Shown here one piece after another: positions 1-55,245 of a stretch of DNA of 64,000 bases. The stretch lies in the IMG/VR virus record IMGVR_UViG_3300024344_000001, one strand, 5' to 3'. Made by a program: the position numbers and the translations under genes. Position 1 is the stretch's first letter, and every line of letters starts with the position of its first letter. The stretch comes from a virus. Taxonomy: Duplodnaviria; Heunggongvirae; Uroviricota; Caudoviricetes. The notes beneath the pieces are model-generated. The model made no database searches. It had not been told where the DNA came from and saw only the letters and a program-made list of their open reading frames with translations.

Positions 1-1354
1 CACCAACCTTGATTTCAAATAAACATTTTTGACCACTTGGTGTAATCACAACCGTATCTAGGGATAAACATTTGTTGAACGAGTATCTAGCTGACTTTTC
101 AATCCAACCGAAGATCTCATCAGCTTCTTCTTGATTAACTATCTTTGTAATTATACACCCGTTTTCGAACTTTACACGCACTTTTTTCATCAAATCGGCC
201 TTTTTTTTGCCAATTGCCTTACGAAGGTCATCTGCCTCCTGTAAGTTAAAGTCCGCTAGCTCTACTGAGATTGTCATCGCCTGCTCTTGGTATACAAGTA
301 CACCTTGAGTAGCAGCCAAGATAGGTTCTAGTGCAATATGAATGTATTCTAGTGGCTCTGTCCCGTTCTTACGGTCCACATACCACTGAGTCATTGACTT
401 ACCATCCATTATAGCCTTGGTACAATTATGGACAACGACGTTCCCAGCAATGAAATTATGATTTGGAGCAAGCATGGAGATATCATAGGTATCTTTTACC
501 CCTACACTCTCTTTTCCAGTAAAAGTTCCCCACACAAAACCCTTATATTGAGGCAATATAAGTTCTTTTCTGGCTCTCAATAGGCGGAATCTTGGAATTT
601 GACCTTCAGTATATTCCCTATGATGATTTGGACATAGGAAACACAAATTCTCTGCCGAGTTATCTACATATCTATTTCCATCAATATGATTAACATCTAG
701 ACTAGCTTTATTCCAGTCACAGAATAGACATTTCACCTCATAATTTTGATAGCATATCTCCTGAAAATATTTATTCCCACGCACGGGTTCAGTTAATCCA
801 TCTTTAACTGAATTAGATGAAGTTCGGTCGCCATTTTTAGCTAAAACGGCAATCCTATCTCCTACCTTTAGATCCTTTAATTCTATCCAACCATTTGGCG
901 TAAGTAGTTTGTGATCATCAGTACATTCTAGATTATACCAATTACCAGACATTCTTCGATTAATTGCATCCTGAAGATATCTAACAACATTAACCCGAAA
1001 ACACTCCTTTTTACCAGAGTAAATAACGTCTTCTACTGTATTTTCGTATAGTTTAGACGTACCATGAGTGGTATCCAAAGACATTATTGTATCATACTTA
1101 TCACTATCTTTGAATATATCTCTAATTGCCACTTTCTTATGCCCACGCTTGTCATATTTCTTCACGTACACTTTCGTGTCGCCAGAAACACAACCTGGGC
1201 GAATGATAGCAATCAAGTCAGATAGCTGTTCAAGATTTTCTGGTTCGGTCTTTTTTGACCAGTTTGACTGTCTATCTAACTGGAAAATACCTTTTGTACG
1301 CCCTTCAGCGAACAATTCGACCATTTCTTGTGTAAAACTGTATCTACCCATCAT
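1..1354 (-). CDS. dnaE: DNA polymerase III alpha (DnaE) C-terminal fragment, 3' end beyond window edge; carries an intein
   Basis: Minus-strand frame from ATG at 1354 reads MMGRYSFTQEMVELFAEGRTKGIFQLD...LIAIIRPG|C...|CTKAIMDG..VLVYQEQAM..LRKAIGKKK. This aligns with E. coli DnaE from about residue 615 (SFDMLQR..AVFQLES..ALFRPGP..YQEQVM..RAMGKKK). The frame stays open to coordinate 1. Confidence 0.75.
   Translation of the reverse strand, partial: MMGRYSFTQEMVELFAEGRTKGIFQLDRQSNWSKKTEPENLEQLSDLIAIIRPGCVSGDTKVYVKKYDKRGHKKVAIRDIFKDSDKYDTIMSLDTTHGTSKLYENTVEDVIYSGKKECFRVNVVRYLQDAINRRMSGNWYNLECTDDHKLLTPNGWIELKDLKVGDRIAVLAKNGDRTSSNSVKDGLTEPVRGNKYFQEICYQNYEVKCLFCDWNKASLDVNHIDGNRYVDNSAENLCFLCPNHHREYTEGQIPRFRLLRARKELILPQYKGFVWGTFTGKESVGVKDTYDISMLAPNHNFIAGNVVVHNCTKAIMDGKSMTQWYVDRKNGTEPLEYIHIALEPILAATQGVLVYQEQAMTISVELADFNLQEADDLRKAIGKKKADLMKKVRVKFENGCIITKIVNQEEADEIFGWIEKSARYSFNKCLSLDTVVITPSGQKCLFEIKVG
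425..1192 (-). mobile_element. Intein (256 aa) inserted after the RPG motif of DnaE, with an embedded HNH homing-endonuclease domain
   Basis: N-terminal block CVSGDTKVY directly after RPG. Block B is NLECTDDHKLLT (TxxH). C-terminal splice junction is NVVVHN|C. HNH motif present: CLFCDWNKASLDVNHIDGN...CFLCPNHH. Flanking exteins restore a contiguous DnaE alignment. Confidence 0.7.
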
Positions 1355-1607
1355 TTTTGTAACCACTCTCCATTATATCCATCGCACGATGGATAAAATC
1401 CCATCTTGCGTCTGTAGCATGTTCTACCATAAAATCGATTACTTCATTAACCGCTTCAACAAACTCGCCCTTTAGTGCTAATTCTTCAAGTGGTGTCAAT
1501 CTGTAACCGCTGGGAACAGTAATTTTATACTCACCAGACATGGTTAGAATCTCAAGTTCTTGTATACAGCCCTGTGGGTCTGTAGAAATCTTGTCATAAC
1601 TTGGCAA
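1344..1607 (-). CDS. 87-aa ORF between the exonuclease gene and dnaE-C; possibly a 5' extension of dnaE-C via +1 frameshift at an A5 run
   Basis: ORF ends ..ESGYKNDG* and overlaps dnaE-C ATG-ATG (1349-1354) in the +1 frame; a run of five A (tacAAAAAtgatg) sits at the junction. Confidence 0.3.
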   Translation of the reverse strand: MPSYDKISTDPQGCIQELEILTMSGEYKITVPSGYRLTPLEELALKGEFVEAVNEVIDFMVEHATDARWDFIHRAMDIMESGYKNDG

Positions 1608-2188
1608 GTGTGCTTAACGTCAACCAACGCATCATGAGCACCCTCGCCGTCAATCCCCATCATTTTCCTAATAGCGTCCATACTGATGGAGGTAACATCA
1701 TGGTCATTCTCCATCCACATATACAAGTTATCCATCATATCGATCTTGAATACCTGACTAAACAGGGCCTGATCATTTCTCTTACTGTCCCACGGACCAT
1801 ATTCTTTACAGATACGGCGGATAATGGGTATGTCATAGTTAATTATATTATATCCTGCTGGAACTGGATTGAAGAATGGTTTACCGCTTGGGTTCATCTT
1901 ATTAACAAACTGTTGGAACTTAGGCCATACATTCTTCAACTTAGGGGCAGCAGCTATTTCCTCCCTAGTCTGCCCTGTTACTTTAAGGGCGTCTGCTTCC
2001 AATGGAGCAAGGTTAGCTGCGACAGCCTTTTCATCATCAGTCTCGGCCCAAATCATAGACTGAAATTCGCCCATAGGTTTCAAAGTTCGCCCGTGTAAAC
2101 CTATAGCAGCAATCTGAGTAGGTTGGCAGGTATCTGGGTCTCTACCGCCAGTTTCAAGGTCAAAACAAACAATATGCCTGGTATGCAT
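1544..2188 (-). CDS. dnaQ: DnaQ-like DEDDh 3'-5' exonuclease (proofreading epsilon-like)
   Basis: Exo I motif MHTRHIVCFDLETGG; Exo III-like GAHDALVDV; lies between the two dnaE fragments. Confidence 0.75.
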   Translation of the reverse strand: MHTRHIVCFDLETGGRDPDTCQPTQIAAIGLHGRTLKPMGEFQSMIWAETDDEKAVAANLAPLEADALKVTGQTREEIAAAPKLKNVWPKFQQFVNKMNPSGKPFFNPVPAGYNIINYDIPIIRRICKEYGPWDSKRNDQALFSQVFKIDMMDNLYMWMENDHDVTSISMDAIRKMMGIDGEGAHDALVDVKHTCQVMTRFLQTHRAVYKNLRF

Positions 2189-2191
2189 AAT

Positions 2192-3856
2192 TTACTTTCC
2201 GTTGCTTAGCGGAGTTAGAACGCCGCCGTGTCTTTCTTGTACAAGTTCTTCCATCAACATTACCTTATCCAAGTGTGTTAATCCAAGAACGTCAAACTTT
2301 TCTTGCCCAAGATCACCAAGATCGCCCATTTCCAATGCCGCCTTAACGTTACCATCTTCGTCTGTAAGCATAGGGCATACATCTGCTAGACAGTCTCTAG
2401 AGATTACTACACCCGCCGCGTGCTTACCATGTGACTTAAAGGTTCCCTCAAGGTCAATAGCCTGCTGGAAATATGGGGCAAAAACACCTTCTAACTTACC
2501 ATCATAGTTAATATGACAGTAATCAATCAACTCTTTCTTGTTATGTAAGAGCGACCAACGAATAATGGATGGGTCATCCATAGATGAAAGCTGGTCAGAG
2601 ATCAAAGATTCATCAGGAATGAACTTGGTCATTTCATTCATTTCACCAAAACCACAAGCCTCATTGACTCTCAGAACTTCCTTAAGGGCAGATTTACCCT
2701 GTAGTCGTCCAAAAGTAATCACCTGACCTACCTTGTCATGGCCGTAGGTATCCTTGATGTAGTCAATAATTTCATCACGCTTGCTGGCTGGCACGTCCAT
2801 ATCAATATCTGGTAGGGAGATATGGTCACCTGTATTACGTCCAGCGTTGTAGAAACGCTCGAAGATTAAACCGTATTCAATAGGGTCAATGGTTGTCACC
2901 CCTAGTAAATACGAAATTAAACAGCCTGCCGCAGAGCCTCGTCCGGGTCCAGTAAGCCACCCGTTATCTCTACAAAATCTGATGATATCCCAAACGATTA
3001 AAAAGTAACCGAATAGGTCAGCGTCCTTAATAACGGTGAATTCATGTTCGAATCTTTTACCGTACAGGTCTCTACCTTCACCCTCAATCCTACTAGTACC
3101 ACCCAGTTCTCTCTTCCACCCCTCACGACATAGTTCCTTAAGGAATTCTTCCTCAGTCTCGCCGTTTGGTGTAGAGAAGTTAGGTAGAATAGGGCCGCTT
3201 AGAATGTTGTATTCTTCGCACTTATCAAAGATCTCCTGGAGAGAATTATGATTCTCTTCGTCCAGCATGTGCATCGCCGTTACTTGATCGTTATCTCTCA
3301 CATACCAGTCATCAAACTCAAAGAATTTGTGTAGACCATCAGGAACGGCGGTATTACCCTTCTTGATCTTAGGGAGAGTGGTTTTTAGACTAGTACATAG
3401 TAATATGCGATGTAGTTCAGCCTGTTCTTTCTCTACGTAGTATGAGGAACGCAGTAATTCCGTCTTGACATAGAAATCATCACCGGAGATTGGTGAGTCG
3501 GCCTCATAGTCTCCTACAGAAATAAGGTTTCCCCTAGCACAACGCTCACGTAGGACGTGGTTGTCTACCTTTCCATCAACAATCGACGATACGATCTTAA
3601 TTAGATCGAACCAACCATCCTTATTTTTGGCAAACAACTTGAATTTCTCAAATGAACAACCGATGATCGGTCTAATACCAGCTTTCTGACAGGCTTTGAA
3701 GAACTGCACGGAACCTGAAATAGAGTGATAGTCAGCAATACCACAGGCGGGGAATTCACATTTCGCACACTTTTTAGCAAGTTCGGCTGGTTTTGAGAAC
3801 CCTCTTAGAAGAGAGTAGTGAGTGAAGTTACATAGGGGAAACCACATATTAGTCAA
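2192..3856 (-). CDS. dnaE: DNA polymerase III alpha (DnaE) N-terminal fragment (PHP + palm/fingers), ends with TAA
   Basis: PHP-domain start MWFPLCNFTHYSLL; catalytic region GYFLIVWDIIRFCRDNGWLTGPGRGSAAGCLISYLLGVTTIDPIEYGLIFERFYN; ends ..KFDVLGLTHLDK..TPLSNGK, matching E. coli DnaE ~res 560-610. Confidence 0.85.
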   Translation of the reverse strand: MTNMWFPLCNFTHYSLLRGFSKPAELAKKCAKCEFPACGIADYHSISGSVQFFKACQKAGIRPIIGCSFEKFKLFAKNKDGWFDLIKIVSSIVDGKVDNHVLRERCARGNLISVGDYEADSPISGDDFYVKTELLRSSYYVEKEQAELHRILLCTSLKTTLPKIKKGNTAVPDGLHKFFEFDDWYVRDNDQVTAMHMLDEENHNSLQEIFDKCEEYNILSGPILPNFSTPNGETEEEFLKELCREGWKRELGGTSRIEGEGRDLYGKRFEHEFTVIKDADLFGYFLIVWDIIRFCRDNGWLTGPGRGSAAGCLISYLLGVTTIDPIEYGLIFERFYNAGRNTGDHISLPDIDMDVPASKRDEIIDYIKDTYGHDKVGQVITFGRLQGKSALKEVLRVNEACGFGEMNEMTKFIPDESLISDQLSSMDDPSIIRWSLLHNKKELIDYCHINYDGKLEGVFAPYFQQAIDLEGTFKSHGKHAAGVVISRDCLADVCPMLTDEDGNVKAALEMGDLGDLGQEKFDVLGLTHLDKVMLMEELVQERHGGVLTPLSNGK

Positions 3857-4037
3857 TCCAATTCAACTGAAATTCTTCTCGTAGTACCACTTCTCTTTGA
3901 GATATAGCCCATTCGCAGTTCACATAAATGGAATCATTAACGTTTACTTCGATCATATCATCCTCCACACTGTATTATACGGGATCTGGGCCGTTTGTCA
4001 ACCGATTTCCGCCCAGATTCCCAAAAAACGCCAACTA

Positions 4038-12979: not shown

Positions 12980-13329
12980 TAATCACCTTCCATTATGTAT
13001 TTACGTTTCTGGTCGGCATTCATTTTTGCGATTTTCTTATTGGTACCTTTATCGGCTTCCCACCACTCTTTTTTAGGTGGTGGATTAAGTTCCAATTCCC
13101 TGGCTTCTTTTTCTCTAATTCGACTCTTGTTCTTATTAAAGTTACGTTCAGCCAGTTGACCAATAGTGGTAGCATCCCCCTTTACAAAAGAGGTTAACCC
13201 ACCAAAAACTATTCTTTCTAAACTATTCTTTCCGCACTGCGGACACTTTCTCTTTACATTAGCCTTGATGGACTGCTGTATTTCGAAATTGTGTTCACAC
13301 TCGGAACACTCATACTCATAGAGAATCAA
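12979..13329 (-). CDS. FmdB-family zinc-ribbon protein
   Basis: YECSECEHNFE...CPQCGK zinc-ribbon pattern. Confidence 0.5.
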   Translation of the reverse strand: MILYEYECSECEHNFEIQQSIKANVKRKCPQCGKNSLERIVFGGLTSFVKGDATTIGQLAERNFNKNKSRIREKEARELELNPPPKKEWWEADKGTNKKIAKMNADQKRKYIMEGD

Positions 13330-14069
13330 TTACAATACTCCTTATATTTATTGTATTTTCTGTCCAGATAGATAGTAGAATCTTTGTATAAAAAATCAAG
13401 GATTCTTCTAACTTGAACATTACCACTTATAGGTAAGTGGTATGTATTCCTAGATGACCTTTGATATAACTTAACATTAATACCAAGTCTTTTCTGAATA
13501 GAAGTTAACATTTCTTTAGTTCCAATAATAGCCAGTCTAATATTGGATTTTTTCACATCAAATGTGATACATCCATCCCCATCAAAATATCCTCTAATGA
13601 AATGTTTATCAATCTCTGAGGGAATTTGTGGATATTTCAGTATCAAACTTTTCCTTGGCACACAGCCCAAGCTCATCAAATCTTGACAAAGCTTGTTAGA
13701 CACATGAGAGCTATGGCAAGATGAATTTTTGTCTAATTGACGAACCTCTAGCATCGAATTGACACATTTATGAAATTTCTCTAAATGTTTATAGTCTGAT
13801 TGCTTCAGATTTATATCTAATCTAAAAGAATCACCATAATATGAACCAACACTACCGTCAGCCATAATAAATCCAAGCCAGTATCCAGATTCTTCTGAAT
13901 CAATAGATTCAAAAAAGTTCTCATTTAGTATTGGTGGTTTTTTAACCCCCCATTTTCTCATTCTACTGTAGAGAGTATTTCTAGATACTCCCAATTTTTG
14001 GGCGATGTCTGTAATACTGACACCATCGGATAATTCTTGCTTGACCAGTTCTTGGTTTATTTCTTTCAT
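13326..14069 (-). CDS. LAGLIDADG homing endonuclease with N-terminal HTH
   Basis: Two LAGLIDADG motifs, YWLGFIMADGSV and GYFDGDGCI; HTH ITDIAQKLGVSRNTLYSRM. Start moved to the internal ATG at 14069, which has a GGAGG RBS. The annotated ATG at 14096 lies inside the -10 element of the 14088-14125 promoter. Confidence 0.65.
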   Translation of the reverse strand: MKEINQELVKQELSDGVSITDIAQKLGVSRNTLYSRMRKWGVKKPPILNENFFESIDSEESGYWLGFIMADGSVGSYYGDSFRLDINLKQSDYKHLEKFHKCVNSMLEVRQLDKNSSCHSSHVSNKLCQDLMSLGCVPRKSLILKYPQIPSEIDKHFIRGYFDGDGCITFDVKKSNIRLAIIGTKEMLTSIQKRLGINVKLYQRSSRNTYHLPISGNVQVRRILDFLYKDSTIYLDRKYNKYKEYCN

Positions 14070-14087
14070 TATTACACCTCCAGTAGT

Positions 14088-14125
14088 ATTATACACTGGA
14101 TCTGTATATGAATGCTCAATAAACT
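14088..14125 (-). promoter_or_regulatory. promoter-like (TTGAGC-N18-TGTATAAT) upstream of the LAGLIDADG gene
   Basis: rc ttgagcattcatatacagatccagtgtataatac. Confidence 0.45.
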
Positions 14126-15818: not shown

Positions 15819-16026
15819 AGTTAAACCTCTCTTTTTTGAATCCACACCTTGGGCAGGTATAGATTCCCATACAAAAACAGTGTGATCCAGATGCAGACAT
15901 CCAGCATCCACACTCTTCACAGTGAATTGATCCTAAGCAGCCACCACCCTTAAGTCTCCATGAATAATCGGGTGGATTATCAAGATCAACAGTTTGACCT
16001 GTATCTCTTACATACTCTATTGGCAT
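15808..16026 (-). CDS. small zinc-ribbon protein
   Basis: CEECGCW...CPRCG. Confidence 0.4.
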   Translation of the reverse strand: MPIEYVRDTGQTVDLDNPPDYSWRLKGGGCLGSIHCEECGCWMSASGSHCFCMGIYTCPRCGFKKERFNYDS

Positions 16027-17099
16027 TATAGTAATCCTCCAAGATCCATATCGTATAAATCGTTCTTACTAGCTCCCTTCTTGTAACTAGTAATCTCATG
16101 TTCTTGTGGGGCCACTTGAACGGCTCCACTGTTCATCCAGGCATCAGTCCAACCTAATGGATTTTTACCTACACTATCGTATGGTAGACCAATAGCCTTA
16201 CGGCGACTCATACACAACCAATCAATATAGTGGTGTAGTGCAGTCTCAGACAAACCAATTATACTACCGTCTTTGAATAGATACGAGGCCCACTCTTTTT
16301 CTTCGTGTGCCGCCGTCTCAAACATCTTAACTGCCATGTCCTGGCATTCATTTGCCGTTTCAATAAATCCTTCTTCCTTCACTCCGTGAAGAATCTTAAG
16401 GATCTCTTGTGTGTTGTATAGGTGAAGGGCTTCGTCTCGCTTAATCTGCTTAACAATATCGGCGTTGCCCACCATCTTCTTATTCTCTGCAAAAGCGAAG
16501 GCACATACGAAGCTTACATAAAATCTAATAGCCTCAAGTATGTTGATACTTACAATAGTCATATAGATTTGCTTCTTAACATCCTTCTTAGAACGCCCCT
16601 GAGCAATCTTATTCAATACATCGTATTCTTTTACGGCCACGTCAGCACGCCGCATGATCTCATTGTCAGTTAGAATGTTATGGAATACATCACTGGGGTC
16701 ATTGTACACATTCTGAATAATGTACGTATAGGCATATGAGTGAATCTGCTCAAACGCCGCCCATGTATTCAAGCAGGCTTCTACTTCGTTGTTACTAACA
16801 AACTTCTGTAGTACCGGAACGCCCCTACAAATCACAGAATCCATCATAGTCTGATATTTCAGATTACTGGTAAAGATGAATTTCTCATTAGGGGTCATGA
16901 TCGCATCATCTTTGAAGTCATTACGGTCCTTCTTCAACTCGATCTCTTCAGGAAACCATACAAACTCCCACTGCTTACGGAACAGGTCCGCAAACACAGG
17001 ATACTTAGGATCGTGGTACATCTGAATACCTAGACCTTCTCCCAGGAAGATAGGCTGTTTCTTTTGATCTACAAACTCTCTGTTTAGTAGTGTGTCCAT
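16026..17099 (-). CDS. nrdB: ribonucleotide reductase class Ia small subunit
   Basis: NrdB-like di-iron carboxylate ligand arrangement; downstream of nrdA. Confidence 0.9.
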   Translation of the reverse strand: MDTLLNREFVDQKKQPIFLGEGLGIQMYHDPKYPVFADLFRKQWEFVWFPEEIELKKDRNDFKDDAIMTPNEKFIFTSNLKYQTMMDSVICRGVPVLQKFVSNNEVEACLNTWAAFEQIHSYAYTYIIQNVYNDPSDVFHNILTDNEIMRRADVAVKEYDVLNKIAQGRSKKDVKKQIYMTIVSINILEAIRFYVSFVCAFAFAENKKMVGNADIVKQIKRDEALHLYNTQEILKILHGVKEEGFIETANECQDMAVKMFETAAHEEKEWASYLFKDGSIIGLSETALHHYIDWLCMSRRKAIGLPYDSVGKNPLGWTDAWMNSGAVQVAPQEHEITSYKKGASKNDLYDMDLGGLL

Positions 17100-17903
17100 T
17101 ACTTGATACCTCTCAGAATGTGGGCGATCATATCAACGGTCCACCCATTTCCAATCATTTTATAGCGTTGTGTGTTACTCACACCTTCAGTGTAGTTATC
17201 AGGGAGAGTCTGAAGTCTTTCGCATTCCAACGGCGTCAACATACGATACTCCAGATCCTCTTTGTCTCTATCAATCTTCTCCAGGAAGACCAACTGCCGT
17301 CTACTCTTCTCAAAGTATTGTTTCAGGTTACCGCCCTTAGCATAGTTTGCGTCTATGCAGTAGGACTTGTCTCTATCTACCACACCGCCCTGGATAATAT
17401 CCTTTAGTAGAACACCCTTATCTTCAGGGGGAGTGAATGGAATGTTAGTCCAGTACAATCTATTACGGAGTTGTGCTGAGACCAGGCTGCTGTTCATCTT
17501 TACGGGCTGTACGCCAAGTGCCTTAGAGATCACGTCCTGTGACTCCTGCTTCATGTTAACGTTCTCTAACAGGAAGTATTTTGGCTCACACTCGTCCAAC
17601 AGTCTCTTGAATTCAAAGAATAGTTTACTACGGGGATCATCAAAGTTCAGTTGTCTACCAGCGAATGAGAATCCCTGACATGGACTACCGCCCATAACTA
17701 GGTCATATCTAGAAAGGAAATCTCCCTTGATAGTAGTAATGTCCCCTATCTGAAGGGTTTCTGGGTAGTTTTTTTGAGCGATCTGTATCGCGTACTTATC
17801 AATCTCAGATGAATAATACACTTCTGTATCAATTCCCGCTCGCTCAAGAGCTACCTGCCCACATGATATTCCATCAAACGTACTTAATACGCTTAAACTC
17901 ATC
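17099..17903 (-). CDS. DNA (cytosine-5)-methyltransferase (Dcm-type)
   Basis: Motif I STFDGISCG, motif IV PCQGFS, ENV, QRYKMIGNGWTV; start moved to the ATG at 17903. Confidence 0.85.
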
Positions 17904-18084
17904 GCATTAGTCCTACAAATACTCCACCAACACAAAATCCAATTAGAAAAGTGCTCAACACCAAAAGGCCCGCAATCAAACAACCTCTATCAAGGATAGG
18001 TTCTTTATATTTTGGCGGTTCGTATGGATTCTTTTCACTTTCCTCACACAAATCCAAAACATCACGTACAATGTTGATTCCCAT
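17899..18084 (-). CDS. small membrane protein
   Basis: Hydrophobic segment LLVLSTFLIGFCVGGVFVGL. Confidence 0.3.
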   Translation of the reverse strand: MGINIVRDVLDLCEESEKNPYEPPKYKEPILDRGCLIAGLLVLSTFLIGFCVGGVFVGLMR

Positions 18085-18500
18085 TAGTAACTTCCTAGTA
18101 AGGTACCTTCTTCACATTCCAAAATCATAAGTTCAATATCGTTACAGACTAAAACACCTTTACAAACATCCTCATACCATTTAAGGTACTCTTTCATGGT
18201 CTTGTGAAAGACCTCCGTTATAGGAATACCTAGAAACAATTTTAATCTTTCGTGTTTATATTCCTTGTAATCAAGGGGATTGTGAACACATTCTTGGATT
18301 AAATCGTCGTATGCAGTTTCATCAACATAGAACCTTTTTGGTGTCAATTCATTCCTATGAGCTACTTTGGTCATAAGGAAACATAATCTTTTGGTTAACC
18401 TACCTGCTAGGGCATCACAATCGTACACTAATATGTTACGATCAATCCCATCTTCTATTAAATTTAATATATCATTAGATACTACAAACTCCACCTTCAC
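18084..18500 (-). CDS. hypothetical protein
   Basis: ORF between nrdA and the MTase gene. Confidence 0.4.
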   Translation of the reverse strand: MKVEFVVSNDILNLIEDGIDRNILVYDCDALAGRLTKRLCFLMTKVAHRNELTPKRFYVDETAYDDLIQECVHNPLDYKEYKHERLKLFLGIPITEVFHKTMKEYLKWYEDVCKGVLVCNDIELMILECEEGTLLGSY

Positions 18501-18553
18501 ACCCCATTTCCTATAAACTTAATTCTTGCTTCAATAGTAATCAAAAACCTGAC

Positions 18554-20779
18554 TTAAATAGCACATGCACCACTCTCACAATTTAGATCTTTTTCCGTAT
18601 CCCCATCGGAATCAGGAGTATTACAGTAATAAAAGTTCTTCAGGCCATACTTGTATCCGTATACCTGATCCTTAACAATTGCACTTAGGGGGATATGACC
18701 GCCCTCATAGTGATTATAGTTGTAGTACAAGTTCGTACTCATACCCATATCCATGAACTTCTGGATAACTGCGGACATATGGATAATAGGCTTATTGCTC
18801 TCCATATCCCATGCCAGGTCATAATACGAGCGACGGTTATAGAAGTTCGGTACAAGTTGTTTCAGGACGCCGTTCTTCGCCTTCTTAAATGACAGCAAAG
18901 CACGAATGAGTTCGATTCCATTGGTGCTATTTTGAATTAAACTGGACGACTCACACGGCATCTGTGCTGACAGCGTAGAATGCCTCAGACCAAATTCCGC
19001 GATTCTGGCTCGCAGACCTTCCCAGTCCATTGTATACGACGGAGCCACGATTGTGTCAACGTTTTTTTCGTACCAATCAATCGGAAGTAAACCTTTTGCA
19101 TATTTGGTATCTTCAAAACCCTCACATGGACCTAGTTTTTCTGCTAATCTACAACTTTCGTTAAGTAAGTGCCACTGAATTTTTTCCATCATTTCGTGGA
19201 CCATTTCCAGTGCCTCTTGTGAAATATAGCTGACCTTGTGCTTCGCGAGGTATCCTGCTAGATTGGTTATGCCAACACCTAGAGATCTTCTTTTTTTTGT
19301 AAAATTCTCACCGGCCTTAACTGGATAATCTTGGTAGTCTATAACACTGTCTAGTGATTTAACTACAATCGCACAAGCCTTCTGAATATCCTGATCGGTA
19401 TCTAGTTCAAGTAGGTTTAGGGCGGATAGTACACAAATACCAATTTCACCGTCTGGATCTTCAATATTGTAGATAGGCTTAGTGGGCTGAGTAATCTCAA
19501 CACATAAGTTGGTCATCTTAACCGGGATATCCCAAGGCCCGTTAGTATTCACATGATCTATGTTCATCGAGTAGATGCGGCCCGTTTGTAGGCGTTCTCT
19601 AGCAAAGATCTCTACAACCTTTCTTGCAGGAACTTTCTTCTTGAACTTAATAGAGTATGCGTTTTCATACTTAAGGTAGAGTCTTTCAAACTCTTCATTG
19701 TCCCCAAAAGCGTCGTACAACCCCTTACATTCATGTGGAGAAAATAGTGTGATATCCTCATTAGCAATCAACCTATCATAGAATAGCTTACAGAACTGAA
19801 CTGTGTAATCCAGTTTTCTAACACGATTATCATCAGTGCCAGCATTATCCTTAAGGACTAGTACATCCTCAATCTCGTAATGCCAAAACGGAATGTTCAC
19901 GTTAGCGGAGCCACCACGTAAACCATTCTGAGACGTGGATTTTACGGCGGATTCAAAGTTCTTCAAATAAGGAATAAGCCCAGTATGAATTACTTCTCCA
20001 CCCCTAATGGGTGAGTTAATAGGGCGAATCCTACCAATGTTCACACCAATACCTGCTCTACGGGCAGTGTACTTACCAACGGCGTGTACGTTGGAAAAGA
20101 TACTGTCAAGTTCATCATCTACGTCTACTAATACACAGGAAGCGAACTGCTTGATGGTAGTCCTCACTCCCGCCATAATAGGGGTTGGAAGGTTCACCTT
20201 GAACGTAGAATAGGCATCATAAGCGGCCTTTACTTCTTTTGGTTCGTCAAATAAACACATAGCAATAAGCATATAGGCAGACTGCGGCGTTTCATACAAT
20301 TCGCCGTTCGACCTATTCTTAACCAGGTACTTATCTACCATCTGCTGTAGACCAGCATATGTGTACTGATCGTCTCTGTCATGAGAAATGAAGTCACCGA
20401 ACATTCTTATTTGCTCAGGCGTCCACTTCTTTAGAATCTCCCTATCATACAGGCCGTTGTCTACATTTACCTGTATAAACTGCAAAAAGTCTGGCGGGGT
20501 CATCCCTTTCCAGACTTCTTTTCGAATCGACATGTTTAGGAGTCTTGCTGCTGCATACTGATAATTAGGGGCCGCTTCCGAAATAAGATCATTAGCGGAT
20601 CTTATCAGAATCTCATGAATTTGCATAGACTCAATTTTATCATAAATAGATAGGCCCGCATTCATTTCGATATCTGATGAAGAAATACCTGCTAGACCAT
20701 CAGTTGCCCACTCAACTACTTTATGGATTTTCTCCACAGAATACGGCTCTAGCGTGCCGTTTCGCTTAGTAACTTGCAT
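18554..20779 (-). CDS. nrdA: ribonucleotide reductase class Ia large subunit
   Basis: N-terminal ATP-cone; catalytic Cys/Asn/Glu region; C-terminal CESGACAI tail. Confidence 0.9.
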   Translation of the reverse strand: MQVTKRNGTLEPYSVEKIHKVVEWATDGLAGISSSDIEMNAGLSIYDKIESMQIHEILIRSANDLISEAAPNYQYAAARLLNMSIRKEVWKGMTPPDFLQFIQVNVDNGLYDREILKKWTPEQIRMFGDFISHDRDDQYTYAGLQQMVDKYLVKNRSNGELYETPQSAYMLIAMCLFDEPKEVKAAYDAYSTFKVNLPTPIMAGVRTTIKQFASCVLVDVDDELDSIFSNVHAVGKYTARRAGIGVNIGRIRPINSPIRGGEVIHTGLIPYLKNFESAVKSTSQNGLRGGSANVNIPFWHYEIEDVLVLKDNAGTDDNRVRKLDYTVQFCKLFYDRLIANEDITLFSPHECKGLYDAFGDNEEFERLYLKYENAYSIKFKKKVPARKVVEIFARERLQTGRIYSMNIDHVNTNGPWDIPVKMTNLCVEITQPTKPIYNIEDPDGEIGICVLSALNLLELDTDQDIQKACAIVVKSLDSVIDYQDYPVKAGENFTKKRRSLGVGITNLAGYLAKHKVSYISQEALEMVHEMMEKIQWHLLNESCRLAEKLGPCEGFEDTKYAKGLLPIDWYEKNVDTIVAPSYTMDWEGLRARIAEFGLRHSTLSAQMPCESSSLIQNSTNGIELIRALLSFKKAKNGVLKQLVPNFYNRRSYYDLAWDMESNKPIIHMSAVIQKFMDMGMSTNLYYNYNHYEGGHIPLSAIVKDQVYGYKYGLKNFYYCNTPDSDGDTEKDLNCESGACAI

Positions 20780-32838: not shown

Positions 32839-33951
32839 TCAACCCTTAATGTTGATAATTGGTTTAACGTGATGGGTAACGTCTACCAATTCCTTCTGTT
32901 GTTCCATGACAGCAAAAATATCCTTGTAGGCGAACGGCGATTCGTCCAGGGTATCCTTATCTACCTTAGCACGAACACCCTCCATAGTCTTCTTGAAATC
33001 CTGAACATCTAATTCTCTCTTAGCGGCCTTACGTCCTAGGACGCGACCAGCACCGTGAGAAGAAGAGTGCATGGATTCTTCGTTCCCTTTACCTACTACT
33101 ATGAACGAACCGTCTCTCATGTTACCAGGAATTACGCCTTTCATCCCTTTTTCAGCATGAGTGGCACCCTTACGGTGAATCCAGCGGCCATCTTTCAATT
33201 CCGCATGATTATGATTACGGTTGATAAACGAATTCGAATCTGAAGACACACCTCCCAATCTACGGTCTAATACCGCTACTACAGCTTCAATCATAGCTGC
33301 ACGGTTAGCCAAGGCATAAGTAAGAGCATAGTTTAGGTCCACGATGTAATCCTGACCCAACTGTGAGTCTACATCAAGAGCACCATCTAGCCCCTCACCC
33401 TTAGCGATTTTCATATACTCACCCGCAATACCATGACCTAGGCCACGAGATCCTGAGTGAATAACGATCCAAATTTTATCATGCTCGTCATAGCCGATTT
33501 CAATGAAGTGGTTTCCACCACCCAATGTACCTAACTGTCTACGGGCATTACGGCGACCGTACATTTCTTCAGCAATCGCCGTATGTGGAAGTTTTTCGTC
33601 TACCCACACCTTGTCTTCCTTATGAGTATTAAAACCAACTGGAATATCACGGTAGATGTTCTGAAATAGGTAGTCGGCTCTTGCTTCAACGTCAGTTCTA
33701 TCGGCGTCTGTGCATATGCTGCTCATCCCGCAGCCTATATCGAAACCAACCCAAGCGGGGTATATTACCTCTCTTGTTGCGAATACTGAGCCAATAGGTG
33801 CATCATATCCAGTATGGGCGTCAGGCATCATAGCCCCTTGCTCAACAAATGGAGAATCCATACAATTATCAAACTGCTCCATAGCGGAGTCTTCAACAAC
33901 TTCTGCAAATATCTTTGATGGTTTCATTTCTCTCTTCTCCCTCTTATTCAC
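32839..33951 (-). CDS. rtcB: RtcB RNA 3'-phosphate/5'-OH ligase
   Basis: Motifs MPDAHTGYD, NRNHNHAE, HSSSHGAGR. Confidence 0.85.
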   Translation of the reverse strand: MNKREKREMKPSKIFAEVVEDSAMEQFDNCMDSPFVEQGAMMPDAHTGYDAPIGSVFATREVIYPAWVGFDIGCGMSSICTDADRTDVEARADYLFQNIYRDIPVGFNTHKEDKVWVDEKLPHTAIAEEMYGRRNARRQLGTLGGGNHFIEIGYDEHDKIWIVIHSGSRGLGHGIAGEYMKIAKGEGLDGALDVDSQLGQDYIVDLNYALTYALANRAAMIEAVVAVLDRRLGGVSSDSNSFINRNHNHAELKDGRWIHRKGATHAEKGMKGVIPGNMRDGSFIVVGKGNEESMHSSSHGAGRVLGRKAAKRELDVQDFKKTMEGVRAKVDKDTLDESPFAYKDIFAVMEQQKELVDVTHHVKPIINIKG

Positions 33952-53784: not shown

Positions 53785-55245
53785 TTAGTGCGTTCTTGAG
53801 AAACGAGAAGGATCAGCCAGTCCAGTGTCCAGTCTATCCGCATGGGTTACATACTCCCCACGGTCATCCTTACAGACTACAACGCCCCCATTATTAAGCA
53901 AACGACTCCCCTTTGCTTCATTACATGATTTGCATAACATTTGCAAATTATTGTACTCGGTACTACCGCCCAAACTATGAGGATGAATATGATCTCCCGC
54001 CATTTCATGGAAATCAAACGTTTGATTGCAAGATGGACAGATTTTATCTTGTTCGTGATACCTCATCTGCTTATCGTATTCAGAAAAGTATCTATGAGGA
54101 TCTTTTACTTCAAGAGAGACAGAACCACTAGCGTTAGGATGTGAAGTAATGAAGTCAAACAATATGGAATGTCTAATTCTTCTAAAGTTCTGACCATTAG
54201 CCGCATGGTGAGCATGACCGCTATAACGATAGAACTCATCTACAAATCCATGCTCTGTGATTTTATCCATCTGAGGCAGACTTTGAGTAAAGTAGACTAG
54301 GGCTTCAGAAAACTCTGTTGTATGAATTTCATAGCCTCTCTCATATAGATCCGCAATTAGACATAATATGCTTAAAAGGGCGTTCTTTTTCTTGAAATGT
54401 AAAGACCTAAGACCGCCACAGAGGGAGGCCACTTCTCTAAGAGTTTGAAAAATTCTATCAACCTTTTTGGCAATCTCATACCATTTAATTGTGGTGTCAT
54501 TAGCGTAGTTTTGGAAAAATGGCTCTAATTCATAATTGTTTGGATGATCGTGCTTAATCATAAAACTAATTAAGCAACCCAAAATCTTACCATCATCCTG
54601 TTGTCTAATTCCCTTTTTACCGACTGTAGACTCCGAGAAGATATCTGCATACTTACCATCTAAGGTAGTAAACGGCATAATTACTTCCTGCACCAAAGGT
54701 GATCTTCTAAATTGAGATCTTAGTAGTTCCTGTGGATTTACTTTGCAGCTAAGATTCAAGGACTGAAACAAATAGTCTTTTAGTTCGTCAATATCATCTT
54801 CACTTAAACCTGCTGTTTCATAAATAACAGTGCATAGTTCATAACGTCTAAACACATTTTTCTCGCTAGATGTGAGATCTTCCCATTTTTTACCATCAAG
54901 ATGACTATCAAACAAATACGGTATAGCCGCTTTGTTTTGCTTCAATCTAAGTTCATTATTTATGAACTTTTTTAGAGTCTCAGATCTTTGCTGACCATCA
55001 ATAGACTCATACCATACTTTTACTTCTACTCCATTAGCATCTTCTTCTGATCTTTCAAGCATATAGATTTTAGGAATATCTACTCCTAGATAGACAGAGT
55101 TTATGAAACTAACCTCATAGGCATATGACCACACAAAATCCCTTTGGTGTTTACCCCCTAACTGGATCTCTCCCTCATTTATTTGCCTAACAATATCACT
55201 AACAGACACAACCTTTGTCTTAGAATTCCATCTTTTTGTATTCAT
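53785..55245 (-). CDS. DUF262 (ParB/GmrS-like) + C-terminal HNH nuclease fusion (GmrSD/BrxU-type architecture)
   Basis: DUF262 motifs LGGKHQRDFVWSYAYEVSFINSVYLGVDIPKIYM and IDGQQRSETL; C-terminal HNH CPSCNQTFDFHEMAGDHIHPHSLGGSTEYNNLQMLCKSCN. Confidence 0.7.
   Translation of the reverse strand: MNTKRWNSKTKVVSVSDIVRQINEGEIQLGGKHQRDFVWSYAYEVSFINSVYLGVDIPKIYMLERSEEDANGVEVKVWYESIDGQQRSETLKKFINNELRLKQNKAAIPYLFDSHLDGKKWEDLTSSEKNVFRRYELCTVIYETAGLSEDDIDELKDYLFQSLNLSCKVNPQELLRSQFRRSPLVQEVIMPFTTLDGKYADIFSESTVGKKGIRQQDDGKILGCLISFMIKHDHPNNYELEPFFQNYANDTTIKWYEIAKKVDRIFQTLREVASLCGGLRSLHFKKKNALLSILCLIADLYERGYEIHTTEFSEALVYFTQSLPQMDKITEHGFVDEFYRYSGHAHHAANGQNFRRIRHSILFDFITSHPNASGSVSLEVKDPHRYFSEYDKQMRYHEQDKICPSCNQTFDFHEMAGDHIHPHSLGGSTEYNNLQMLCKSCNEAKGSRLLNNGGVVVCKDDRGEYVTHADRLDTGLADPSRFSRTH

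What the first reader, a model, noticed from the sequence alone, without database searches (positions are those of the whole stretch)
425..1192. HNH-containing intein inserted at the conserved RPG motif of DnaE
A 256-aa insertion starts with Cys, carries a TxxH block and an HNH domain (CLFCDW...NHIDGN...CPNHH), and ends with VVHN followed by Cys. Removing it restores the DnaE FRPG-P...YQEQ alignment. Together with the split gene above, this phage dnaE has been invaded at least twice by selfish elements.
Basis: partly seen in the sequence, partly recalled or inferred. Interest (0 to 1): 0.6.

Follow-up and report, generated by a model that had tools for sequence, protein, structure and literature searches.

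The report
HNH homing intein in phage DnaE

Summary
Window 1192..425 (minus strand) is 256 in-frame codons, beginning with Cys after ...IIRPG and ending ...VVHN before Cys.

- **Intein identity:** the segment passes Pfam Intein_splicing and NCBIfam intein_Nterm. Its model has a HINT fold (TM 0.84 to the Ssp DnaB mini-intein) with a ββα HNH domain inserted between the splicing lobes.
- **Empty site:** 119 of the 120 best extein relatives (49-85% identity) lack the segment and read straight through RPG|CT(K/R)A.
- **Family:** about 70 divergent DnaE proteins carry a homologous intein at this site or 2-3 residues downstream. Splicing and HNH catalytic residues are 91-100% conserved.
- **Mobility:** the closest inteins are 48-50% identical, more than their host exteins (36-40%). 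Intein GC3 is 0.28 against 0.42 in the exteins. Both point to horizontal acquisition.

One side claim needs correcting. The DnaE-N / exonuclease / DnaE-C gene split is a conserved operon in intein-free relatives, so it is not shown to be a selfish invasion.

A second invasion does exist. At FNK|SHS, starting at window 70 and running off the left edge, there is a split intein with a Vsr-like free-standing endonuclease gene, a "fractured gene" as described by Dassa et al. 2009.

Verdict: new member of a known kind; modest interest.

The parts
425..1192 (-). Complete intein, 256 aa, from Cys1 (1192-1190) to Asn256 (427-425).
   Evidence: Searches give the translation and codon positions. Pfam PF14890 scores 38.8 bits against a gathering score of 35.8. 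TIGR01445 scores 25.6 against 24.5. The AF2 model has pLDDT 83.4. Foldseek matches the HINT fold of 1mi8, 4o1r and 2in9 with TMt 0.80-0.84. The segment is absent from intein-free homologs.
842..1192 (-). N-terminal splicing lobe, residues 1-117. Holds block A (Cys1) and block B (T91-x-x-H94, codons 922-911).
   Evidence: intein_Nterm covers residues 1-98.: β-strands run to residue 117. Cys1 and H94 are invariant and T91 is 91% conserved across 70 homologs.
773..841 (-). Low-confidence linker, residues 118-140, between the splicing lobe and the HNH domain.
   Evidence: pLDDT is below 50 for residues 123-140; the region is poorly conserved and varies in length.
563..772 (-). HNH (ββα-metal) endonuclease domain, residues 141-210. 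Motifs: CxxC (C155, C158), D166, H169, N178, N182, CxxC (C184, C187), N189, H191.
   Evidence: - One search gives the motif positions.
- the catalytic and zinc-binding residues other than C184 (C155, C158, D166, H169, N178, N182, C187, N189, H191) are 99% conserved; C184 is conserved in 60-80% of homologs.
- the domain model has pLDDT 87.4 with a β-β-α core.
- all 50 best PDB matches are HNH nucleases (McrA, IscB, Cap5, VcaM4I, Cas9 HNH).
- the profile hits the McrA HNH domain at E=0.016.
- the IscB HNH region matches at E=5.5e-4.
- Pfam HNH_2 and HNH_3 fall below threshold.
425..562 (-). C-terminal splicing lobe, residues 211-256. Holds block F (D237...N246) and block G (VVHN, H255-N256).
   Evidence: PF14890 matches through profile position 155 of 155; blocks F and G align with the Ssp and Npu DnaB inteins. 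D237 and N246 are invariant.
1193..1354 (-). N-extein. The first 54 aa of the DnaE C-half gene (start codon 1354-1352), ending ...IIRPG.
   Evidence: Searches give the gene call in identical contig L001. PF17657 DNA_pol3_finger is split into two stretches by the intein. One search gives the alignment.
71..424 (-). C-extein, 118 aa. Runs from the native +1 Cys (424-422), CTKAIMDGKSMTQ...YQEQ..., to ...RYSFNK (Lys codon 73-71).
   Evidence: the spliced extein aligns with Taq Pol III alpha residues 656-844 and E. coli 598-785 (E=1.9e-34 and 4e-32).
2..70 (-). Start of a second element: the first 23 residues (CLSLDTVVITPSGQKCLFEIKVG) of a split-intein N half, inserted at FNK|SHS. The rest lies left of the window.
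   Evidence: Searches give the Cys codon at 70-68. Searches show that in L001, which is 100% identical over window 1-4000, the ORF stops after about 93 intein residues. A 295-aa Vsr-like endonuclease gene follows, then a 387-aa gene that starts with a 38-aa IntC followed by SHS; the fused halves pass TIGR01445 (26.5 against 24.5) and TIGR01443 (16.5 against 15.6).
1344..1541 (-). Context: a 65-aa ORF of unknown function in a variable slot between the exonuclease gene and DnaE-C.
   Evidence: no Pfam hit; the slot holds three other small ORFs in L005 and none in L006.
1544..2188 (-). Context: a DnaQ-like RNase_T-family 3'-5' exonuclease gene (214 aa) lying between the two DnaE genes.
   Evidence: PF00929, E=7.8e-12; the position is conserved in intein-free relatives.
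2192..3847 (-). Context: the DnaE N-half gene (551 aa; PHP + palm/NTPase domain).
   Evidence: PF02811 and PF07733 (E=6e-63). TIGR00594, E=1e-102. One search gives the gene call.

Best explanation
Window 425-1192 (minus strand) encodes a canonical class-1, homing-endonuclease-bearing intein. It sits in the finger domain of the catalytic DNA polymerase III alpha (DnaE) of an uncultured marine tailed phage. In this lineage DnaE is made from two genes.

**Shown here**
- The element is a precise 768-nt in-frame insertion between the Gly of the conserved RPG motif and a native Cys.
- It has all the class-1 splicing residues: Cys1, block B T91-x-x-H94, block F D237, H255-N256 and Cys+1.
- Its model is a HINT fold with an HNH ββα-metal nuclease domain inserted at the usual place, between blocks B and F.
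- Close DnaE relatives lack it.

**Inferred from the established intein mechanism**
1. After translation, Cys1 performs an N-to-S acyl shift.
2. Cys+1 attacks the thioester, giving a branched intermediate.
3. Asn256 cyclises and releases the intein.
4. An S-to-N shift leaves a normal peptide bond, ...IIRPG-CTKAIM..., and so an intact finger domain.

**Inferred from homing-endonuclease biology**
The excised intein, or the precursor, uses its HNH domain to nick or cut the intein-less dnaE allele of a co-infecting related phage near the GGT|TGT junction. Recombinational repair from the intein-bearing copy then spreads the element.

The intein was probably acquired horizontally in this lineage.
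For: **Splicing domain**
- Pfam Intein_splicing scores above its gathering score. TIGR01445 scores above its cut-off.
- PDB sequence hits are to DnaB and RecA inteins over blocks B, F and G.
- The AF2 model has pLDDT 83.4 and pTM 0.79. Foldseek gives probability 1.0 and TMt 0.75-0.84 to the Ssp DnaB, Npu DnaB and Mtu RecA mini-inteins. The alignment spans both ends of the query across the central insert.

**HNH domain**
- The motif is read directly from the sequence.
- The core catalytic and zinc residues are 99% conserved across 70 cluster representatives. Only C184 is less conserved (60-80%).
- The separate domain model has pLDDT 87.4. Its top 50 PDB matches are all HNH nucleases.
- The profile hits the McrA and IscB HNH domains.

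**Empty site**
- 119 of the 120 best extein homologs are 512-537 aa and collinear across the site. They include P0004 (85% identical) and P0005 (74%).
- The codon-level junction is shown.

**Family and mobility**
- Of 70 homologous inteins, 42 sit at RP[GAS]|C/S, 13 at RPGxx|S and 14 at RPGxxx|C/S.
- The closest inteins are 48-50% identical while their exteins are only 36-40% identical to this phage's extein.
- Intein GC is 36.1% and GC3 0.281, against an extein GC3 of 0.42. That places it in the lowest 6% of 256-codon windows in the window's long ORFs.
- Distant relatives (25-30% identity) occur in other DnaE sites, in P-loop proteins and in ThyX.

**Essential host**
The finger domain PF17657 is split in two by the element. 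The identical sequence recurs in four metagenome assemblies, which suggests a viable phage.
Against: - No experiment has been done. Splicing and DNA cleavage are inferred only.
- TIGR01443 intein_Cterm scores 15.2, just under its cut-off of 15.6.
- Pfam HNH models are below threshold (E=0.07 and 0.36). PDB matches for the HNH domain have weak E-values (0.016-0.02), as expected for a 75-residue domain.
- The compositional deviation is modest, about 1.9 SD.
- Intein identity exceeding extein identity was measured against 50%-clustered representatives without a phylogeny. Loss in many lineages cannot be formally excluded against gain.
- One relative (P0124) has lost the second half of the HNH motif, so endonuclease decay does occur in this family.
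- The four metagenome contigs may not be independent samples.
Confidence: 0.9

Rival explanations
1. The intein splices normally, but its HNH domain is no longer an active homing endonuclease. The element would then be a vertically inherited passenger, fixed because imprecise loss would kill the polymerase.
For: Homing cycles predict endonuclease decay after fixation. P0124 carries a homologous intein whose HNH motif is truncated. All four contigs of this phage carry the intein, and no intein-less allele of the same phage was found. Pfam HNH models are sub-threshold.
Against: In this copy every HNH catalytic and zinc residue is intact. These residues are 99% conserved (C184 60-80%) across 70 divergent homologs, which implies ongoing selection for nuclease function. 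Distribution among close relatives is sporadic, and intein identity exceeds extein identity. Low GC3 also argues for recent movement.
Confidence: 0.25
2. The segment is a lineage-specific functional domain of DnaE, an HNH nuclease module retained in the mature polymerase, and not a spliced-out intein.
For: It lies in frame within an essential gene and carries a nuclease domain. Polymerases do acquire accessory nuclease domains. In this lineage the proofreading exonuclease is a separate gene next to it.
Against: The segment is bounded by Cys1 and HN|Cys and has blocks A, B, F and G. It passes intein models. The HINT fold wraps around the HNH domain. 119 of the 120 closest homologs lack it with no gap at the site. 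Homologous elements occur in unrelated hosts such as ThyX and P-loop proteins, always ending HN|C/S.
Confidence: 0.02
3. The segment is a bacterial intein-like (BIL) or other Hint autoprocessing domain. It would cleave but not ligate, and so inactivate or process DnaE.
For: BIL and Hedgehog Hint domains share the fold. A BIL2 structure appears low in the Foldseek list (6y75, rank 41). Pfam PT-HINT gives a weak hit at E=0.098.
Against: The best matches by sequence and fold are true inteins. The terminal HN and a +1 Cys nucleophile are present and conserved. The host site is a conserved motif of an essential enzyme and the +1 residue is the native residue. That is the intein pattern, not the BIL pattern of hypervariable secreted proteins (general knowledge).
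Confidence: 0.02

Closest known systems
Endonuclease-bearing class-1 inteins with an HNH domain (first recognised by Dalgaard et al. 1997, cited in PMC5050341). The nearest GenBank phage examples are the ThyX inteins of cluster C1 mycobacteriophages (Colt, Cane17, Blubba).
   Same: They share the architecture: Cys1, block B, HNH, block F, then HN|C/S. The match is full length, 28.5% identical, E=9e-10. ThyX inteins of C1 mycobacteriophages are catalogued in PMC5050341.
   Different: The host protein is DnaE fingers, not ThyX. Sequence similarity is low. None of the 50,697 GenBank phage records has a homolog of this intein in DnaE at E<1e-5.
PolIII-alpha (DnaE) inteins of bacteria, including the cyanobacterial split DnaE intein (Ssp/Npu) and the finger-domain insertion hot spot described by Novikova et al. 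2016 (PMC4760082).
   Same: The host protein and domain are the same. That paper reports several insertion points clustered in the DnaE finger domain. The fold matches Ssp and Npu DnaE intein structures (1zd7, 4kl5).
   Different: The site is RPG|C. That is about 117 residues upstream of the cyanobacterial AEY|CFNKSH site. The cyanobacterial site itself is quoted from memory, not from a tool result. This intein is contiguous and HNH-bearing, not split, and its host is a phage two-gene DnaE. I could not tell from the text held whether RPG|C matches one of the catalogued points a-g.
'Fractured gene' DnaE loci from Global Ocean Sampling data (Dassa et al. 2009, PMC2677866), especially locus DnaE-1.
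   Same: These are marine metagenomic DnaE genes with a split intein plus a free-standing Vsr-like or GIY-YIG endonuclease gene. [quoted passage not shown] That is the arrangement seen here: the HNH intein lies 118 residues upstream of a split intein, a Vsr-like endonuclease gene follows, and its 3' end overlaps the IntC gene.
   Different: The published locus was a fragment whose upstream intein was incomplete and uncharacterised. Sequence identity to it could not be checked. Here the upstream intein is complete, typed as HNH, and placed in long-contig (50-138 kb) genome context.
Ssp DnaB, Npu DnaB and Mtu RecA mini-inteins (PDB 1mi8, 4o1r, 2in9).
   Same: These are the best structural and sequence matches for the splicing domain. 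Blocks B, F and G align residue by residue.
   Different: They are engineered or natural mini-inteins without an endonuclease. Sequence identity is only 13-16%.

Membership tests
Class-1 intein | Nucleophilic Cys or Ser as the first residue. | tested here: met
   Cys1 is at codon 1192-1190. It is invariant in 70 homologs, though the set was filtered for a C/S start.
Class-1 intein | Block B TxxH motif. | tested here: met
   T91-D-D-H94. T91 is 91% conserved and H94 100%.
Class-1 intein | Blocks F and G with a C-terminal His-Asn, followed by a +1 Cys, Ser or Thr. | tested here: met
   D237...N246...VVH255-N256 | Cys. PF14890 aligns to its last profile position. TIGR01443 alone is 0.4 bit under its cut-off.
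Class-1 intein | HINT fold. | tested here: met
   The AF2 model has pLDDT 83.4. Foldseek gives TMt 0.84 to 1mi8 and 0.83 to 4o1r, probability 1.0. This is a prediction, not a solved structure.
Class-1 intein | In-frame insertion at a conserved host site that is absent from orthologs. The spliced sequence restores the host protein. | tested here: met
   Searches show zero-gap restoration against homologs up to 85% identical. The spliced extein aligns to Taq and E. coli Pol III alpha.
Class-1 intein | Autocatalytic protein splicing. | not testable with these tools
   This needs expression of the precursor and detection of ligated exteins and free intein.
HNH homing endonuclease domain | ββα-metal fold with the catalytic His...Asn...His and zinc-binding Cys pairs. 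| tested here: met
   The motif is and its conservation. The domain model has a β29-32, β46-49, α51-58 core. All 50 top PDB matches are HNH nucleases.
HNH homing endonuclease domain | Match to curated HNH family models above threshold. | tested here: inconclusive
   Pfam HNH_2 scores E=0.07 and HNH_3 E=0.36, both below gathering scores. The IscB HNH region scores E=5.5e-4. The McrA HNH domain scores E=0.016 with a family profile. Free-standing relatives P0130, P0131 and P0133 carry PF01844 and PF13391.
HNH homing endonuclease domain | Site-specific cleavage of the intein-less allele, and homing. | not testable with these tools
   Support is indirect only: sporadic distribution, intein identity above extein identity, and low GC3.
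Fractured gene (split intein + free-standing endonuclease; Dassa 2009), for the neighbouring element at window 2-70 and leftwards | The upstream ORF ends with IntN. An endonuclease gene lies between. The downstream ORF starts with IntC and a +1 nucleophile. The host protein is collinear in relatives. | tested here: met
   The fused halves pass TIGR01445 and TIGR01443. The middle gene hits Vsr at E=1e-3, with a weak NUMOD3 hit. It overlaps the IntC gene by 37 nt. Relatives read FNK-SHS without interruption. Most of the element lies outside the window.
Bacterial intein-like (BIL) / Hedgehog Hint domains | A Hint fold without the canonical C-terminal HN plus +1 nucleophile ligation chemistry, found in variable non-essential proteins. 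| tested here: not met
   The HN|Cys junction is canonical and the host is a conserved essential protein. BIL structures rank far below inteins.

The most novel reading that the evidence does not exclude
The intein may be more than a parasite. With Cys1 and a native Cys+1 flanking a loop of the polymerase fingers, and a second (split) intein 118 residues downstream, maturation of this phage's replicase would require two independent splicing reactions. These could act as a post-translational switch, for example redox-dependent or assembly-dependent, that times replication.

Separately, this one intein lineage occupies three insertion points within four residues (RPG|C, RPGxx|S, RPGxxx|C/S). It occurs in both two-gene phage DnaE and full-length DnaE. 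This suggests an HNH with relaxed target specificity that lets the intein 'slide' and cross between very different dnaE genes.
Probability: 0.1. Interest if true: 0.55.

Novelty: new member of a known kind. Interest (0 to 1): 0.3.

Why it matters
The finding adds a complete, well-bounded HNH-type intein to the DnaE finger-domain hot spot. It also shows that the family is fairly widespread in uncultured marine phages, with about 70 clusters at 50% identity.

Together with the adjacent fractured split intein, it gives a full-context example of one essential replicase gene carrying two different mobile protein-splicing elements. Both are on top of an ancestral two-gene DnaE with an interposed exonuclease gene.

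Practical value is modest. It offers a candidate new cis-splicing intein with a Gly(-1)/Cys(+1) junction, and next to it a naturally orthogonal split intein with Ser+1 for protein engineering. It is also a test case for how neighbouring inteins affect each other's homing.

It does not change what is understood about inteins.

Tried and rejected
- **Megablast against GenBank phages.** Window 1-4000 found nothing. The phage has no sequenced close relative, and the DnaE N-half is at most 33% identical to any GenBank phage.
- **Word-indexed homolog search.** With the intein alone it returned only 3 fragments. With a 4-sequence profile it returned 13. This under-represents the family badly. The exhaustive phmmer search was needed to find it.
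- **Pfam HNH models.** They did not reach threshold. I relied instead on motif conservation, a family profile against PDB and a separate domain model.
- **E. coli numbering.** My first recollection, that RPG lies next to the third catalytic Asp, was wrong. The PDB alignment places the site in the fingers, at about Taq 698-700 by my count.
- **Catalogued insertion points.** I tried to map RPG|C onto the PolIII-alpha points a-g of Novikova et al.. The text held does not give residue contexts, so this is unresolved.
- **The N/C split as a selfish-element scar.** I considered this and rejected it as unsupported, because the operon is conserved in distant intein-free relatives.
- **Composition as evidence of foreign origin.** It is only suggestive: lowest 6% of windows, about 1.9 SD.
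- **BIL/Hint domain or resident nuclease domain readings.** Rejected; see the rival explanations.
Full report
**1. Observation**

The dnaE reading frame is on the minus strand. Translating it gives MMGRYSFTQEMVELFAEGRTKGIFQLDRQSNWSKKTEPENLEQLSDLIAIIRPG, then a 256-residue segment CVSGDTKVYV...NFIAGNVVVHN, then CTKAIMDGKSMTQWYVDRKNG...GVLVYQEQ...SARYSFNK.

- The codon positions are Cys1 = 1192-1190, Asn256 = 427-425 and +1 Cys = 424-422.
- All quoted motifs are present: T91-D-D-H94, C155-L-F-C158-D-W, D166-V-N-H169-I-D-G-N, N182-L-C-F-L-C187-P-N-H-H191 and V-V-H255-N256.
- The plus-strand ORFs listed over the region are short antisense artefacts.

**2. It is an intein**

Sequence evidence:
- Pfam Intein_splicing matches residues 18-256 at 38.8 bits against a gathering score of 35.8 (E=1e-9). 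The host's DNA_pol3_finger domain is split into two stretches around it.
- NCBIfam intein_Nterm scores 25.6 against a cut-off of 24.5. intein_Cterm scores 15.2 against 15.6, just under.
- Against PDB sequences, the segment hits the Ssp and Npu DnaB and Mtu RecA inteins over blocks B, F and G.

Structural evidence:
- An AlphaFold2 model built on a 13-sequence alignment has mean pLDDT 83.4 and pTM 0.79. Only the 123-140 linker is disordered.
- Foldseek against the PDB returns only inteins at the top. Examples are 1mi8 (TMt 0.84), 4o1r (0.83) and 2in9 (0.80), all at probability 1.0. The alignments span both termini of the query across a central insert.

**3. The central insert is an HNH nuclease**

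- Curated Pfam HNH models are sub-threshold (E=0.07 and 0.36). The IscB HNH region matches at E=5.5e-4.
- A profile of 33 family members hits the McrA and IscB HNH domains over the H...N...H core (E=0.016-0.02).
- A separate model of residues 138-212 has pLDDT 87.4 and a β-β-α core. All 50 best PDB matches are HNH nucleases, including McrA, IscB, CBASS Cap5, VcaM4I, ScoMcrA, Cas-HNH and Gme HNH.
- Across 70 divergent homologs, C155, C158, D166, H169, N178, N182, C187, N189 and H191 are 99% conserved. Only C184 is less conserved (60-80%).

**4. Empty-site test**

I searched with the conceptually spliced DnaE C-half.
- The search returned more than 4000 relatives.
- 119 of the best 120 are 512-537 aa and cover 96-100% of the 521-aa spliced query.
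- The nearest are P0004 (85% identical), P0005 (74%) and P0006 (69%). They read ...LIAIIRPG-CT(R/K)A(L/M)(M/L)DGKSMTQ... with no gap.
- The +1 Cys is the native residue in most relatives. A few have Ala or Thr.
- At nucleotide level, against L005, the element is a clean 768-nt insertion between GGT and TGT.
- The spliced extein aligns with Taq Pol III alpha 656-844 and E. coli 598-785. The site is therefore in the finger domain. By my count from that alignment, RPG is at about Taq 698-700.

**5. The family and its mobility**

Family size and insertion points:
- Word-indexed searches found only a handful of fragments with the same intein at the same site.
- Exhaustive phmmer against 1.84 billion cluster representatives found 907 hits at E<1e-3 and 82 at E<1e-30.
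- I parsed boundaries for 70 full-length homologs: 42 sit at RP[GAS]|C/S, 13 at RPGxx|S, 14 at RPGxxx|C/S and 1 elsewhere.
- The RPGxx|S group is mostly full-length DnaE proteins of 1350-1576 aa.
- More distant relatives (25-30% identity) sit at the DnaE FNK|SH and FG|SYGFNK sites, in P-loop proteins (G|CGKT) and in ThyX. The ThyX hits agree with the best GenBank-phage hits, the ThyX inteins of mycobacteriophages Colt and Cane17 (28.5% identity; catalogued in PMC5050341).

Evidence of horizontal movement:
- The closest inteins (P0136, P0138, P0137, P0144) are 48-50% identical. Their exteins are only 36-40% identical to this phage's extein. More than 100 intein-free DnaE-C proteins are 50-85% identical.
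- Intein GC is 36.1% and GC3 0.281, against an extein GC3 of about 0.42. That is the lowest 6% of 256-codon windows in the window's long ORFs.
- Together these favour relatively recent horizontal acquisition by homing. No formal phylogeny was made.

**6.

- The window is 100% identical over positions 1-4000 to four metagenome contigs, L001-L004, of up to 138 kb.
- The window carries phage-typical genes: RNR, RtcB, a DNA methyltransferase, tail-fibre-like proteins and HNH genes.
- Gene order is DnaE-N (551 aa, PHP + palm), an RNase_T exonuclease (214 aa), a 65-aa ORF, DnaE-C, then SSB.
- The same N-half / exonuclease / C-half / SSB order is found in intein-free relatives, including Tara Oceans contigs. 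In L006-L008 the stop and start codons overlap. The number of small ORFs before DnaE-C varies from 0 to 3.
- The two-gene DnaE is therefore an ancestral architecture of a large marine phage clade. It is not evidence of a selfish invasion.

**7. A second invasion**

- After ...RYSFNK the ORF continues CLSLDTVVITPSGQKCLFEIKVG (Cys codon 70-68) and runs off the window.
- In L001 the ORF stops after about 93 intein residues.
- A 295-aa gene follows. It hits Vsr at E=1e-3 over residues 185-278 and NUMOD3 weakly.
- Its last 37 nt overlap a 387-aa gene. That gene begins MDIAKIISIKKVGIIPTMDIEVDSNEHVFYGNGLVTSN|SHSICYAANAY... and continues with the rest of DnaE.
- The fused halves pass both intein_Nterm (26.5 against 24.5) and intein_Cterm (16.5 against 15.6).
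- Relatives read FNK-SHS without interruption.
- This is the 'fractured gene' arrangement of Dassa et al. 2009. That paper reported three GOS DnaE loci of this kind. Its DnaE-1 locus also carried the C-terminal part of an additional in-frame intein upstream. This matches the layout seen here, though I could not compare the sequences.

**8. Mechanism**

Shown: the anatomy, the residues, the fold and the empty site.

Inferred from established class-1 intein chemistry:
1. Cys1 performs an N-to-S acyl shift.
2. Cys+1 carries out trans-thioesterification.
3. Asn256 cyclises.
4. An S-to-N shift yields ...IIRPG-CTKAIM....

Inferred from homing-endonuclease biology: the HNH domain cuts or nicks the intein-less allele in a co-infecting phage, and repair copies the intein in.

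My confidence is about 0.93 that this is a genuine class-1 intein with an HNH domain, about 0.85 that it splices, and about 0.6 that the HNH domain is still active in homing.

**9. Novelty and score**

- HNH-bearing inteins, DnaE finger-domain inteins and fractured DnaE genes are all described (PMC4760082, PMC2677866, PMC5050341).
- No GenBank phage record has a homolog of this intein in DnaE. I could not match the RPG|C site to a catalogued insertion point.
- It is therefore a new member of a known kind.
- Interest is modest at 0.3. The case is well documented, has some protein-engineering value, and is a neat example of two different splicing elements in one replicase. A specialist would not be surprised by it.

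Noticed in passing
window 2-70 (- strand), continuing left of the window; L001 12128-14456: A second element interrupts the same gene. It is a split intein at FNK|SHS. The IntN half is about 93 aa. A 295-aa Vsr-like free-standing endonuclease gene follows, then a 38-aa IntC fused to the remaining 349 aa of DnaE. This is a 'fractured gene' in the sense of Dassa et al. 2009.
   Followed up: yes
window 1344-3847 (- strand); L005, L006-L008: DnaE is encoded as two genes, N-half (PHP + palm) and C-half (fingers to OB). A DnaQ-like RNase_T exonuclease gene lies between them. The operon is conserved in many intein-free marine relatives, so the split is ancestral. How the halves assemble is unknown.
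   Followed up: partly
window 1344-1541 (- strand): A 65-aa ORF with no family match sits in a variable slot between the exonuclease gene and DnaE-C. Relatives have three different small ORFs there (L005) or none (L006).
   Followed up: partly
L001 15044-17077; L002 11219-13987; L005 5285-8077 (left of the window): A glycosyltransferase gene of 922-930 aa carries a LAGLIDADG-type intein (CLTPNT...FCIHN|C). The ortholog in L006 is 561 aa without it. This would be a third intein in the same phage, in an unusual host protein.
   Followed up: no
window 13326-14096 (- strand): A 256-aa protein matches PHROG 4645 'endonuclease' (E=2e-57). It has the lowest GC3 of the long ORFs checked (0.268). It may be another mobile nuclease gene.
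   Followed up: no
window 53785-55245 (- strand): A 486-aa protein has an N-terminal domain of unknown function (PHROG 2598/1583) fused to a C-terminal HNH endonuclease domain (residues about 385-460). Its GC3 is low, at 0.32.
   Followed up: no
proteins P0158, P0167, P0171, P0176, P0179, P0181, P0190 and others: Homologs of this intein occupy three insertion points within four residues: RPG|C, RPGxx|S and RPGxxx|C/S. They occur in both two-gene and full-length DnaE proteins. Several hosts of 900-1200 aa appear to carry more than one intein.
   Followed up: partly
protein P0124: A homologous intein at the same DnaE site has lost the second half of the HNH motif (...GNRKTNNHPDNALPNTQHIQW...). 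This is an example of endonuclease decay within the family.
   Followed up: no
window 32839-33951 and 16026-20779 (- strand): The phage encodes an RtcB-like RNA ligase and class Ia ribonucleotide reductase subunits of normal length. These genes are common intein targets, and no intein is present in them.
   Followed up: no
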